Shown piece after piece: positions 19,601 to 22,600 of a DNA stretch of 64,000 nucleotides (within the stretch, counting starts at the first letter, position 1; each line of letters opens with the position of its first letter). The stretch lies in NCBI RefSeq assembly GCF_002854065.1, contig NZ_CP024150.1; one strand, given 5' to 3'. The stretch is from Escherichia coli. Its GTDB lineage: Bacteria; Pseudomonadota; Gammaproteobacteria; Enterobacterales; Enterobacteriaceae. A program made the position numbers.

Positions 19601-22600
19601 GCAATTTTAAGCCAGATGGGGATGATTACATGGAGCTTACAAGACAGCATGAAACATTATCCCTTACATGCTCGAATAGTATCATTAGAGAGCTGGCCTT
19701 TGATGCTTACTATGCTGTTTCTCATGCATGCACAATGGGGACTGCAAATCGCGATGAAAAAGCCCCAGCCCGGAAAAAAGCTAAAGAGGCTTTAGATAAG
19801 TTTCAGGGATTTGCCAGCGAAGAACTACGTCGTGAGAAAGCTGCAATTGATGTAATAAGCGATAAGCGGACATTCTGGTCCTTTAGACGGCGAACAGCGC
19901 GATGATGGTGTCCGGAGCGCGGAAAATCTTGTTTAAAATATCTAGCGCGGTAGCAGAAAGAAAACGCATTAGCCATCAACTGTATCTCGTTACTGGCACA
20001 AGAATTAATTCATGTATTACAGCAAGTTAGCAATTATGCGCAGTAGAAGTTATCGTGGAGTTTTTTGATGGAAGAAGTAACCCCCATGGAAATAAAAATG
20101 AGGGGTACGCTATACTCAAGTAACTTGAAGATGCTGGATGATTGAATTCCAACCACTGTATATTTTAGGCCGCATACATGATATTCAAAACAATTTTTTC
20201 AGTAATACTTTTTCTTTCATTTTCTGCCGCAGCACAACCACAAAAGTTGGAGTGTGTCAGCCGAAAGGATGGTACGGTAAAAATAGCGCATATTTTCAGC
20301 AGTCCATCAAATAAGGGGCTGCTGGAGTTTGATAGTGCCATTTTTACGAAGGTGGATTCAAAAATAGAATCAGGAAATTTGAAAACCTTGTTTTCTACTC
20401 AACAAGAAGAGAGGCAAAAAGAAAGTCGCGTGATTTTTTTAACACTAAGAGACAGAGATGCCGAAATATTTGTCACAAGAAAAACTGGTAACAATGGTTA
20501 TGAAGATGGGATGATTTATGAATGTAATCCCTGAACATTTAATCCTTTTAGATATATTTAAATAAAATTTAGTCAAGAAAAGTGAACACATTTATGTTTC
20601 ATAAGGAGTTTGTATGCTGGGTACTTCATTTCAACAGTTTTCGATAGAGGCGCTTCTGGAAAGTGCTTCACTACGCAGTGGACTGACAGCATTGAATAAG
20701 TGTAAATATCATGATAAAGGCAGCTTTTATAATGCTTTTTTCAACTATCAATTGGTCTGGAACGTTTTTTAAAATTATTTATGTTGTTCAGTATATGATT
20801 GAAAATGATTTAAACAAACCAACATATAGTCATTTGAGAAAATTAGGTCATGATATAAGTACTTTACATCAAAATGCAGTAAATATTGCAATCAAATATG
20901 AGAAAAGAGACAAAGGCAAATGGGTCTTAAATGATGAGCAATCTGCAATATTAACAATGCTATCGGAATTCGGGAAAGAAACCAGGTATTATAATTTAAA
21001 TACTATTATTGGAGATAAAAAACTAATGAATGACCCTCTCGAGCAATGGAATTGTATTTTGGAGTATTGCTACTGGAAGTATACTTCAGCAACTAAAAGA
21101 GAGAGATTGAGTCAAGATGTAATCTCATGGGCTGAGAGAAATCGATTGTATGGTTTTACTAATGAATTTGGCCTCGATGGTCATATTATGACGTATGTAG
21201 ATCAGTATCTATTGAACTGGAAAGTAACCAAAATTTCGCCTTGCATTGCATGGGAAATAATTAGCATGTTGCAACCGTATTACTTTTTGCTAATGAGATT
21301 ACGAGATACTGTGCAGTTGAAGGAACAAGATAAAGGCATTAAAGACCCTTTAGTACCATACTTTCATGAGATTTTCCCATATTTCCTTTTAGATCGTGCA
21401 ACAGCGAAAAGACGTAGGAATTGGCTTGATTAGCCGCAATACTATTTCTAGACAGAATGAGTGTATGTCCAAGTCGGGCGAGGAATTAAACGAGAGGCGT
21501 AAAAAAGGCCACTTACGCGGCCTTTGTCTGTTGGTTCTTCGGCCTGGTGACATACCACGATAAACATCCCACAGCTACACTCATCAACATTCCGGATAAG
21601 CGATCATCTGCCTGAGAAAACAGGCAACCGACAAACATCGCAACAGGGAAAGGAAGAAGTAAACAGCGCCCCAAAATGCTCATAAAATCCATAAATCCTC
21701 CTTTGTTAAAGGGCAGGAAGCGGTGCACTTCCTGCCCTTAGTTACGTTTCCGCAGTCATCAATCGATGAACTGGCGAATCAGTTCCAGAACAGCAATCAG
21801 CGCGTTTGCAACGGCGACCACAGCCCTGAGAACGATGATTAACAGGTTAATCATCCGTTTCTCCAGATTGACACTGGAGGAAGTCACCGTTGCTTGCTCA
21901 TACATCGCCTGTCACAACGGCTCTCTCACAATGTTGGATGTAGAGTACCTTCCCCCTGCCAGAGCACTGAACACAGCACCACCTGTTTGTTCAGCCAGGA
22001 CTTTAATTCGTTCATACCCAGATAGCGCAGGGTTTAGAAGCAAGGGAGGCAACACTGTACAGCGCCAACACAAAGATTATACCGATGCACGCATAAAATT
22101 CATTTAAAGAAATGACCATTGACAGACAATCTGAAGTCAAACTAGACAACCGGTGTCTAGTGCCATAATATTATGGATGTTGGATGTAGAGTATCTTCCT
22201 CCAGTCAGAGCCACCAACTCAAAGCTGGAAAACACGAAAAAGCCCGATTACCAGTCGGGTTTTTTTGTGCCTGGCGTTCGGCTGTTCTTCCGTTTTTCCC
22301 CTTCATTTTAGGGTTTTTCTTTCTGTTTTTTTGTTGCGTCCAATGCCGCTGGTCGCGTTGACCAATAGCTCAATGTCGTTACCGGCATTTTCATAAATCC
22401 AATTTTTTCGGTAAGTTGAATCACACAAGATGATTAAAAAGCTGTCGGTTTTTTTGATGGATACAGTAGCGGCGGTGCGCTGCGTGAAATCTGATATTTT
22501 TCAGGAAGGACTGAGCGCGAGAATTGGCGAGGGGGCATCAAAATATTTTTTGGGCATGAATGGAAATTCCCCCTGTTCTGGGCATTAAATAAATCCCACT

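What the first reader, a model, noticed from the sequence alone, without database searches (positions are those of the whole stretch)
21513..22275. DinQ-like type I toxin peptide with agr-like direct repeats and hairpins
A 31-aa hydrophobic ORF (21759-21854, minus) resembles the E. coli DinQ toxin in its ALIA-LELIR core. It is followed by two about 34-bp direct repeats on the opposite strand (21933 and 22179), the second ending in a hairpin plus T-run, reminiscent of the agrA/agrB antisense RNAs of the dinQ locus. A strongly palindromic hairpin (21712-21742) and a 59-aa membrane ORF with an excellent RBS lie just downstream. This cargo module is not covered by protein-level annotation.
Basis: partly seen in the sequence, partly recalled or inferred. 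Interest (0 to 1): 0.6.

Follow-up and report, generated by a model that had tools for sequence, protein, structure and literature searches.

The report
Known plasmid DqlB–AgrB toxin–antitoxin locus
This stretch is an intact copy of a plasmid "addiction" module that is already named and annotated: a 31-residue membrane toxin (DqlB) kept silent by a small antisense RNA (AgrB). It is correctly recognised but ordinary.

Summary

- **Toxin:** the 31-aa ORF (21759-21854, minus) matches NCBIfam "DinQ-like type I toxin DqlB" at 72.8 bits (cut-off 35). RefSeq annotates it as dqlB on plasmids that are 100% identical over 21400-22400.
- **Antitoxin:** Rfam AgrB matches 22180-22267 (plus) at 61.5 bits (gathering score 40).
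- **The two repeats:** the 35-nt direct repeats match at 31/35 positions, but they are not two sRNA genes. Copy 2 (22177-22211) is the 5' end of the single AgrB-like sRNA. Copy 1 (21931-21965) is its target in the dqlB 5' UTR, 76 nt upstream of the start codon, at about the same distance as in E. coli dinQ (72 nt).
- **Support for the pairing:** across 14 loci the sRNA and its target co-vary (93% of cells paired; 21 of 26 pairs changed on both sides).
- **The hairpin:** 21709-21739 is the conserved dinQ/dql terminator.
- **Differences from chromosomal dinQ:** no LexA box at the promoter and no agrA.
- **Published tests:** the dql family was defined in 2016. DqlB-agrB was shown in 2025 to be toxic, to be rescued by agrB and to stabilise plasmids (pOXA-48, pOXA-484).
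- **Unexplained part:** the 59-aa membrane ORF (21513-21692) lies beside dqlB only in IncX1/X4-type loci. It matches no family and is not annotated in the RefSeq records checked.

The parts
21759..21854 (-). dqlB coding sequence: 31-aa hydrophobic type I toxin, MINLLIIVLRAVVAVANALIAVLELIRQFID
   Evidence: NCBIfam NF041473 at 72.8 bits, cut-off 35, full length 1-31/31. Annotated as dqlB (WP_000609149.1) in RefSeq records identical over this stretch. dN/dS against six plasmid lineages is 0.03-0.14.
21861..21879 (-). Hairpin that sequesters the Shine-Dalgarno sequence (elements 3:4 of the dinQ model): CUCCAG (21879-21874) pairs with CUGGAG (21866-21861, containing the SD GGAG)
   Evidence: Present in the minimum-free-energy fold of the full-length transcript, where the SD has a 2% probability of being unpaired. 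Every aligned locus has a CUCC motif just upstream of the GGAG.
21931..21965 (-). AgrB target site in the dqlB 5' UTR (repeat copy 1). Contains element 2 (GGGGGAAGG, 21956-21948).
   Evidence: 31/35 identical to the 5' end of the sRNA. Lies 76 nt upstream of the ATG, against 72 nt in K-12 dinQ. Predicted cognate duplex is -60.5 kcal/mol. Co-varies with the sRNA across 14 loci.
21966..21995 (-). Conserved 5' UTR stem-loop (SL2 of the dinQ/dql model). Its plus-strand sequence includes a CTG-N10-CAG motif at 21983-21998.
   Evidence: 95% of cells paired, and 7 of 11 pairs changed on both sides, across 12 loci. The same 20-mer was scored as a weak LexA site (HI 11.64) on pTF2 in PMC12211044.
22076..22081 (-). 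Inferred dqlB -10 box, TATAAT. The transcription start is inferred near 22069. The -35 region is poor.
   Evidence: Aligns with the -10 box of K-12 dinQ. The consensus promoter scan did not call it. No LexA box overlaps it, unlike in K-12.
22143..22171 (+). agrB promoter: TAGACA, 17-nt spacer, TAATAT. The -35 box lies within a 17-nt palindrome, TAGACAACCGGTGTCTA.
   Evidence: Called by the promoter scan. Promoter-like -35 and -10 hexamers stand at about the same distance upstream of the other sRNA genes listed.
22180..22267 (+). AgrB-like antitoxin sRNA: a 5' recognition segment (repeat copy 2 is 22177-22211), a stem-loop, and a Rho-independent terminator (stem-loop 22243-22259, then a T-run)
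   Evidence: Rfam RF02891 at 61.5 bits, gathering score 40, E = 5.3e-9, model positions 1-84/84. Fold z-score -4.27.
21709..21739 (-). dqlB transcription terminator / 3' stem-loop: 12-bp perfect stem followed by UUUAAC
   Evidence: Aligns with the K-12 dinQ terminator. Conserved in 16 of the 17 other loci listed (absent from L017), with compensatory stem changes and the same CGGAAACGTAA...TTTAAC/T frame in most of them.
21513..21692 (-). 59-aa ORF with two hydrophobic segments (SD AAGGAGG at 21703-21697). A neighbour of dqlB, not a core part of the module; function unknown.
   Evidence: tblastn finds it in 711 plasmids, and 707 of them cover at least 80% of it. It follows dqlB in the IncX1/X4-type loci examined and is absent from the IncI, IncL/M, IncN, IncX3 and K-12 loci. 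dN/dS is 0.32-0.45 in frame, against 0.88 and 1.09 out of frame. No match in Pfam, NCBIfam, PADLOC or PHROGs.
21497..21518 (-). Terminator-like hairpin that contains the stop codon of the 59-aa ORF

Best explanation
The region is an intact dqlB-agrB type I toxin-antitoxin module of the dinQ-like (dql) family, carried on a conjugative plasmid.

- **Toxin side:** dqlB is transcribed leftwards from a promoter near 22076-22081. The mRNA has a 5' UTR of about 215 nt. As made, its Shine-Dalgarno sequence is locked in a local hairpin, so the primary transcript is poorly translated.
- **Antitoxin side:** a divergent promoter drives an sRNA of about 88 nt (22180-22267). Its first ~32 nt pair with the UTR 76 nt upstream of the start codon: 28 Watson-Crick pairs, 3 G-U pairs and 1 mismatch.
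- **How repression works (by analogy with dinQ/agrB):** pairing occupies UTR element 2, which keeps the anti-SD/SD hairpin closed, and it creates an RNase III substrate. No toxin is made while the plasmid keeps supplying AgrB.
- **After plasmid loss:** the sRNA is presumed to decay faster than the toxin mRNA. The 31-aa membrane peptide is then made and kills or arrests the cell (post-segregational killing).

Shown here: family membership of both genes, the complementarity and its co-variation across loci, SD sequestration in silico, the conserved terminator, and purifying selection on the peptide.

Inferred from tested homologues: toxicity, rescue by agrB, the addiction function, and 5' processing of the mRNA.
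For: - **Toxin membership:** NCBIfam DqlB 72.8 bits against a cut-off of 35.
- **sRNA membership:** Rfam AgrB 61.5 bits against a gathering score of 40.
- **Existing annotation:** the product is annotated on RefSeq plasmids identical over this stretch.
- **Homology to dinQ-agrAB:** the DNA aligns with K-12 dinQ-agrAB, including the -10 box, the 5' UTR blocks, the SD, the coding sequence and the terminator.
- **Repeat:** 31/35 identity.
- **Specificity:** the cognate sRNA-UTR duplex is -60.5 kcal/mol. In 14 of 17 sRNA/mRNA combinations the cognate mRNA, or one with an identical recognition site, gives the strongest duplex (-47 to -66 kcal/mol). The three exceptions pair best with an mRNA of their own recognition class. 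Pairs from different classes score -25 to about -47.
- **Co-variation:** 93.4% of cells paired, against 39-47% in slid controls. 21 of 26 pairs changed on both sides, and 0 of 500 shuffles reached the observed covariation score.
- **mRNA fold:** the minimum-free-energy fold shows the 1:2 pairing and the SD hairpin. SL2 and SL4 co-vary across 12 loci.
- **Selection:** dqlB dN/dS is 0.03-0.14.
- **Experiments on homologues:** DqlB is toxic, agrB rescues it, and the locus acts as an addiction/stability module on pOXA-48 and pOXA-484 (PMC12365149; PMC12317039). The IncL/M and IncX3 peptides fetched here are 26/31 and 28/31 identical to the window peptide.
Against: - Nothing in the window shows transcription, toxicity or plasmid stabilisation for this particular copy.
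- The dqlB promoter has a perfect -10 box but a poor -35 region, and the consensus scan did not call it.
- The published 2:3 "open" conformation is not the predicted minimum-free-energy fold for most 5' truncations. The SD opens only when the 5' end is near 21990. Co-variation for helix 2:3 is no better than a slid control.
- Identity between two DNA repeats could in principle be kept by gene conversion rather than by selection on RNA pairing.
Confidence: 0.9

Rival explanations
1. One reading: the two direct repeats mark two antisense sRNA genes, as agrA and agrB do in E. coli K-12.
For: K-12 does carry two sRNA genes with this repeat; both score above 100 bits with the Rfam AgrB model. Copy 1 shares 31/35 positions with copy 2.
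Against: - Rfam finds no match at copy 1 even at E <= 1.
- No plus-strand promoter-like site lies immediately upstream of copy 1, and no plus-strand terminator-like site follows it before 22243.
- Only the 35 nt are shared, not the sRNA body.
- Copy 1 lies 76 nt upstream of the ATG, close to where the dinQ target lies (72 nt).
- Nearly every plasmid locus examined has one sRNA per toxin gene. PMC12317039 likewise found agrB but no agrA on IncX3 plasmids.
Confidence: 0.04
2. The locus is an inactive relic: a toxin gene disarmed by mutation, or an sRNA that no longer controls it.
For: Decayed copies exist elsewhere. L016 and L017 have lost the interval between the repeats, with both promoters. 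The L007b and L017 peptides have altered C-termini. The window itself holds a truncated AgrB-like remnant at 24355-24440.
Against: This copy has an intact ORF identical to a widespread protein, WP_000609149.1. It also has an intact SD, a -10 box, a terminator and a full-length sRNA matching model positions 1-84/84. The duplex has only one true mismatch.
Confidence: 0.05
3. An SOS-inducible damage-response toxin like chromosomal dinQ, controlled by LexA, rather than an addiction module.
For: It is homologous to dinQ. A CTG-N10-CAG motif at 21983-21998 is the same 20-mer that PMC12211044 scored as a weak LexA site (HI 11.64) upstream of dqlB on pTF2.
Against: - The LexA box that overlaps the K-12 dinQ promoter (TACTGTATGATTATCCAGTTA) is replaced here by CATCGGTATAATCTTTGTGTTG.
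- The only CTG-N10-CAG motif lies about 70-85 nt inside the inferred transcribed UTR, within conserved stem-loop SL2.
- DqlB protein was not detected in the proteomic analysis of that study.
- The locus occurs almost only on plasmids: 2241 of 2270 places in complete E. coli genomes.
Confidence: 0.05

Closest known systems
DqlB-agrB of IncL plasmid pOXA-48 (PMC12365149, 2025)
   Same: - A 31-aa DqlB peptide. The IncL/M representatives L014 and L015 are 26/31 identical to the window peptide.
- A divergent upstream sRNA whose ~35-nt 5' segment is complementary to the dqlB 5' UTR.
- The same terminator frame.
- In that system the peptide was shown to be toxic, agrB rescued it, and the locus acted as an addiction module.
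   Different: - The recognition sequence belongs to another class. Window/IncL-M cross duplexes are -30 to -35 kcal/mol, against -60 to -62 for the cognate pairs.
- The IncL/M sRNA is too divergent to match Rfam AgrB, whereas the window sRNA scores 61.5 bits.
- The repeat spacing is 188 nt there and 246 nt here.
- No 59-aa ORF lies downstream.
agrB-dqlB of IncX3 plasmid pOXA-484 (PMC12317039, 2025)
   Same: The architecture is the same. The IncX3 representative L010 has a peptide 28/31 identical to the window peptide and an Rfam AgrB match of 47.8 bits. Toxicity, neutralisation by agrB and plasmid stabilisation were shown. No agrA was found.
   Different: It belongs to a different recognition class (cross duplexes -35 to -42 kcal/mol). 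The terminator stem sequence differs, with compensatory changes. The 59-aa ORF is absent.
E. coli K-12 chromosomal dinQ-agrAB (PMC3567139, PMC5066626)
   Same: The loci are collinear and align at the DNA level: terminator, coding sequence, SD hairpin, SL4, AgrB target, SL2, -10 box and a divergent sRNA. The target lies 72-76 nt from the start codon in both. The peptides share the ALIA-LELIR core.
   Different: - DinQ has 27 aa and a GTG start.
- The window peptide fails the DinQ equivalog model (25.3 bits against a cut-off of 30).
- K-12 has a LexA box at the promoter and two sRNA genes; the window has neither.
- One is chromosomal, the other plasmid-borne.
tisB/istR-1 and zorO/orzO (type I systems whose sRNA is encoded apart from, not opposite, the toxin gene and targets a long 5' UTR)
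   Same: The logic is the same: the sRNA is encoded apart from the toxin gene, pairs with a site well upstream of the ribosome-binding site, and the toxin is translated only from a processed mRNA. This rests on established knowledge; PMC5397157 and PMC4147584 appeared in the search but were not read beyond their abstracts.
   Different: There is no sequence homology. The weak OrzO-P hits in related loci cover little more than the terminator.

Membership tests
DqlB (NCBIfam NF041473, DinQ-like type I toxin) | The peptide scores above the curated whole-protein cut-off of the equivalog model | tested here: met
   72.8 bits against a cut-off of 35, E = 1.4e-20, aligned 1-31 of 31. Identical to WP_000609149.1.
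DqlB (NCBIfam NF041473, DinQ-like type I toxin) | A short, single hydrophobic helix peptide with the conserved MINLLI..LRAV...NALIA.LELIR signature, under purifying selection | tested here: met
   Aligned with 19 other peptides from 17 loci. dN/dS is 0.03-0.14, with changes concentrated at third codon positions.
DinQ proper (NCBIfam NF041472) | The peptide scores above the curated cut-off | tested here: not met
   25.3 bits against a cut-off of 30. The peptide is a paralogue (dql), not dinQ itself.
DinQ proper (SOS regulon member) | A LexA box overlapping the promoter | tested here: not met
   The K-12 box TACTGTATGATTATCCAGTTA has no counterpart here. The only CTG-N10-CAG motif lies inside the UTR at 21983-21998.
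AgrB antisense sRNA (Rfam RF02891) | The covariance-model score reaches the gathering threshold over the full model | tested here: met
   61.5 bits against 40, model positions 1-84/84, E = 5.3e-9.
AgrB antisense sRNA (Rfam RF02891) | Encoded divergently upstream of the toxin gene, with its own promoter and a Rho-independent terminator | tested here: met
   Promoter-like site at 22143-22171 and terminator at 22243-22266. The same layout is seen in K-12 and in most of the plasmid loci examined.
AgrB antisense sRNA (Rfam RF02891) | A 5' segment of about 30-35 nt complementary to the toxin mRNA 5' UTR, upstream of the ribosome-binding site | tested here: met
   31/35 identity between the repeats, which gives 28 Watson-Crick pairs, 3 G-U pairs and 1 mismatch over 32 nt. 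Co-variation across 14 loci: 93.4% of cells paired and 21 of 26 pairs changed on both sides.
dinQ/dql 5' UTR regulatory architecture (PMC5066626) | The SD is sequestered by an adjacent anti-SD (hairpin 3:4) in the primary transcript; stem-loops SL2 and SL4 are conserved | tested here: met
   In the minimum-free-energy and partition-function folds the SD has a 2% probability of being unpaired. SL2 is 95% paired and SL4 90% paired, both with compensatory changes. The column count for hairpin 3:4 is only 61%, because the alignment register shifts in the variable-length loop. By eye, every aligned sequence has a CUCC motif just upstream of the GGAG.
dinQ/dql 5' UTR regulatory architecture (PMC5066626) | An alternative 2:3 pairing that opens the SD after 5' processing, and that AgrB binding reverses | tested here: inconclusive
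   Elements 2 (GGGGGAAG) and 3 (CUUCCUCC) are complementary. However, the SD opens in silico only when the 5' end is near 21990. Co-variation for 2:3 is no better than a +1 slide. Blocking the target keeps the SD closed.
dinQ-agrAB locus of E. coli K-12 | A second sRNA paralogue (agrA) | tested here: not met
   There is a single AgrB match in the module. Copy 1 has no promoter, terminator or Rfam match.
Type I toxin-antitoxin / plasmid addiction module | The peptide is toxic on expression, the sRNA neutralises it, and the cell dies after plasmid loss | not testable with these tools
   Shown for homologues on pOXA-48 and pOXA-484 (PMC12365149, PMC12317039). Not shown for this copy.

The most novel reading that the evidence does not exclude
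The 59-aa ORF with two hydrophobic segments (21513-21692, minus) begins 66 nt after the dqlB stop codon, right behind the weak-U-tract terminator, and has a near-perfect SD. It could be a real third component of the IncX1/X4-type dqlB loci. It might be expressed by terminator read-through on the toxin mRNA and might modulate DqlB, as a membrane partner, an immunity factor or a second toxin.

The evidence does not exclude this:
- It is intact in about 700 plasmids.
- It follows dqlB in the IncX1/X4-type loci examined.
- It shows a moderate coding signal (dN/dS 0.3-0.45 in frame, about 1 out of frame).
- One lineage has an in-frame 60-nt deletion.
- It is absent from the RefSeq annotations examined and from every family library searched.

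It could equally be an unrelated backbone gene that merely sits next to the module.
Probability: 0.12. Interest if true: 0.4.

Novelty: already known. Interest (0 to 1): 0.15.

Why it matters
The practical value is mainly correct annotation.

- **Role on the plasmid:** the window's IncF-type plasmid carries an addiction module that helps it persist without selection. Its nearest relatives are on IncX1 backbones.
- **Why such loci are missed:** they are small. The 2025 pOXA-48 study makes the same point.
- **What the comparative data add:**
  - The AgrB/target recognition sequences fall into at least six or seven mutually poorly cross-pairing classes that follow plasmid lineages.
  - Plasmids with two loci carry two different classes.
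  - Orphan or truncated agrB genes and repeat-to-repeat deletions occur.
- **Bearing on plasmid biology:** these points touch on incompatibility and "anti-addiction" between co-resident plasmids, but they extend a known system and do not describe a new one.

Tried and rejected
- **Two sRNA genes (agrA plus agrB):** rejected. There is no Rfam match, promoter or terminator at copy 1.
- **Chance ORF, repeat or hairpin:** rejected by the model scores, the DNA homology to K-12 and conservation across many thousands of plasmid records.
- **LexA control as in dinQ:** no box at the promoter.
- **A second dqlB locus at the weak AgrB hit (24355-24440):** no DinQ-like ORF exists anywhere else in the window and no complementary target was found. 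Comparison with pH2332-166 shows an agrB remnant that has lost its 5' segment.
- **Family assignment for the 59-aa ORF and for the flanking 240-aa and 500-aa ORFs:** NCBIfam, PADLOC and PHROGs gave nothing for any of them. Pfam, run only on the 59-aa ORF, also gave nothing.
- **Reproducing the published SD-opening switch:** simple 5' truncations gave only partial agreement. The 2:3 co-variation count was inconclusive.
- **Column-based count for hairpin 3:4:** blurred by the alignment register in the variable loop.
- **Minor repeats D2 and D3:** treated as chance matches.
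Full report
**What is in the sequence**

The minus strand of 21480-22300 carries a 31-codon ORF at 21759-21854. It reads MINLLIIVLRAVVAVANALIAVLELIRQFID and has a GGAG 6 nt upstream of its ATG.

The repeat finder reports one 35-nt direct repeat, at 21931-21965 and 22177-22211, matching at 31/35 positions. It also reports one perfect 12-bp inverted repeat, at 21709-21720 and 21728-21739. When the 576-nt module is searched by blastn against the window, the repeat is its only other match (E = 3.9e-7).

The second copy is followed by a stem-loop and then a G+C-rich hairpin with a T-run. 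A 59-codon ORF at 21513-21692 on the minus strand has AAGGAGG 4 nt upstream of its ATG. It ends inside a terminator-like hairpin.

**Identity of the two genes**

- The peptide matches NCBIfam NF041473 "DinQ-like type I toxin DqlB" at 72.8 bits (cut-off 35) over the whole model.
- It falls below the cut-off of the DinQ model itself (25.3 against 30).
- Rfam AgrB (RF02891) matches 22180-22267 on the plus strand at 61.5 bits (gathering score 40, E = 5.3e-9) over model positions 1-84.
- The sRNA folds far better than shuffled sequence (z = -4.27).

**Distribution and existing annotation**

Megablast of 21400-22400 finds records that are 100% identical over the query, on which RefSeq annotates "dqlB: DinQ-like type I toxin DqlB" (WP_000609149.1). 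One of them, NZ_AP027791.1, is a conjugative IncFIA/IncFII plasmid.

The module matches DNA in 1673 of 5426 complete E. coli genomes, and 2241 of the 2270 places are on plasmids. It also matches thousands of PLSDB plasmids, mostly conjugative ones.

The nearest relatives outside the identical records, at 98.9% identity with the same flanking ORFs, include an IncX1/IncX3-typed plasmid whose topB-hha-hns backbone adjoins the locus.

**Homology to dinQ-agrAB, and what each element is**

The locus aligns with the K-12 gor-arsR intergenic region along its whole length. The aligned parts are the terminator, the coding sequence, the SD region, the UTR blocks, the -10 box and the divergent sRNA. This settles three points.

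1. The hairpin at 21709-21739 is the dinQ/dql terminator. It recurs in 16 of the 17 other loci listed (L017 lacks it), mostly within the frame CGGAAACGTAA-TAAGG...CC-TTTAAC/T. The stem sequences differ in a compensatory way: GGGCAGGAAG, GGGCTAAGAG, GGCCGGAGG and GGCGGGGGG.
2. Repeat copy 1 lies 76 nt upstream of the ATG. The AgrB target in dinQ lies 72 nt upstream, and in the other plasmid loci the distance is 69-76 nt. Copy 1 is therefore the target site in the dqlB mRNA, not a second sRNA gene. No Rfam match, plus-strand promoter or plus-strand terminator accompanies it.
3. The LexA box that overlaps the dinQ promoter in K-12 is absent here. The only CTG-N10-CAG motif, at 21983-21998, lies inside conserved stem-loop SL2. 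It is the same 20-mer scored as a weak LexA site on plasmid pTF2 (PMC12211044).

**Evidence for the antisense interaction**

Of the four differences between the two repeat copies, three put a U in the sRNA opposite a G in the mRNA, which is a G-U pair. One is a true A-A mismatch (sequence). RNAduplex gives -60.5 kcal/mol for the cognate pair.

I fetched 16 further dqlB loci from IncX1, X3, X4, X5, I, B/O/K, L/M, N, HI and F plasmids. In 14 of 17 sRNA/mRNA combinations the cognate mRNA, or one with an identical recognition site, gives the strongest duplex (-47 to -66 kcal/mol). The three exceptions pair best with an mRNA of their own recognition class. Pairs from different classes score -25 to about -47. 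The loci fall into about seven recognition classes, and plasmids with two loci carry two different classes.

I also made a concatenated alignment of the sRNA 5' segment and its target from 14 loci.
- 93.4% of cells form pairs, against 39-47% when the partner is slid.
- 21 of 26 pairs change on both sides.
- None of 500 shuffles reaches the observed covariation score.

One caveat applies: the two sites are DNA repeats, so gene conversion could contribute to their similarity.

**The mRNA switch**

The predicted fold of the inferred primary transcript (22069-21705) reproduces the published "+1 dinQ" picture. A 5' element (about 22050-22040) pairs with the target region, and the SD sits in a CUCCAG/CUGGAG hairpin with a 2% probability of being unpaired (model from PMC5066626). 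SL2 and SL4 are supported by compensatory changes across 12 loci.

The alternative 2:3 pairing exists on paper (GGGGGAAG with CUUCCUCC). It is not favoured in silico until the 5' end reaches about 21990, and its co-variation is inconclusive. That step stays inferred.

**What is already known**

- The dql family, split into dqlA and dqlB, was defined by Kristiansen et al. 2016 (PMC5066626).
- In 2025, DqlB-agrB of pOXA-48 was shown to be toxic, to be neutralised by agrB, and to kill cells after plasmid loss. Homologues were found in 3310 of 15,775 typed plasmids, including 4.2% of IncF plasmids scattered across the tree (PMC12365149).
- The IncX3 pOXA-484 locus was shown to be toxic, to be neutralised by agrB, and to stabilise a plasmid. 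No agrA was found there (PMC12317039).
- The window peptide is 26/31 identical to the IncL/M representatives and 28/31 identical to the IncX3 representative fetched here.

This copy is therefore a further, already annotated member of a characterised family.

**The 59-aa ORF**

tblastn finds it in 711 plasmids, nearly always full length. It sits directly after the dqlB terminator in the IncX1/X4-type loci examined. It is absent downstream of dqlB in the IncI, IncL/M, IncN, IncX3, IncHI1B and K-12 loci. It is not a core part of the module.

- dN/dS is 0.32-0.45 in frame, against 0.88 and 1.09 in the other frames. One lineage has an in-frame 60-nt deletion.
- The terminator, the SD and the first ~28 codons are almost nucleotide-identical between lineages whose dqlB coding sequences differ at dS of about 0.4. 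This is unexplained.
- No library holds a family for it. It is not annotated in the RefSeq records examined, though some GenBank records call it a hypothetical protein.

**Verdict**

Novelty: already known. Interest is low.

Noticed in passing
window 24355-24440 (+); L019 1397-1762: A weak AgrB-like match (25.2 bits, below the gathering score of 40) lies next to an IS3 copy. In IncF plasmid pH2332-166 the same site holds a full AgrB match (46 bits) with no DinQ-like ORF nearby, that is, an orphan antitoxin gene. The window copy lacks about 280 bp, including the 5' recognition segment. It has no complementary target anywhere in the window.
   Followed up: partly
L016 993-1081 (IncX5/IncU pKPC_CAV1761); L017 1050-1136 (IncFII pCFSAN000952): These loci have a single repeat copy fused directly to the AgrB body and terminator. 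Recombination between the two 35-nt direct repeats would leave exactly this, deleting both promoters. The L017 peptide also has an altered C-terminus. They look like decayed loci.
   Followed up: partly
L003-L018 and window 21931-21965 / 22177-22211: The AgrB/target recognition sequences fall into about seven classes that cross-pair poorly and follow plasmid lineage. Plasmids with two dqlB loci (L007, L018; L004 has two AgrB matches) carry two different classes, which suggests orthogonal addiction modules.
   Followed up: partly
window 21600-21745 (-): The dqlB terminator, the SD and the first ~28 codons of the 59-aa ORF are almost nucleotide-identical between lineages whose dqlB coding sequences differ at dS of about 0.4. 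L005 carries an in-frame 60-nt deletion between short direct repeats, and L006 has a 1-nt insertion near the 3' end.
   Followed up: partly
window 22143-22159 (+): A 17-nt palindrome, TAGACAACCGGTGTCTA, overlaps the -35 box of the agrB promoter. It recurs, with one central change, only in loci of the same recognition class (the second L004 sRNA, and L007b). It could be an operator or a coincidence.
   Followed up: no
window 21983-21998: A CTG-N10-CAG motif lies inside conserved 5' UTR stem-loop SL2. It is the same 20-mer reported as a weak LexA site (HI 11.64) upstream of dqlB on pTF2 (PMC12211044). It lies downstream of the inferred transcription start.
   Followed up: partly
window 20711-21433 (+) and 22651-24153 (-): The ORFs flanking the module, of 240 aa and 500 aa, match nothing in NCBIfam, PADLOC or PHROGs. 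RefSeq annotates both as hypothetical. The 240-aa ORF has a counterpart at the same position next to dqlB on an IncX1/IncX3-typed plasmid (L021).
   Followed up: no
L007 780-860 (mRNA sense, downstream of dqlB-b): In the second locus of pSI85-1 a different short ORF (MSFEQLFTLTT...) starts behind the same terminator-plus-AACAAAGGAG context. Other lineages may therefore also place a small ORF immediately after the dqlB terminator.
   Followed up: no
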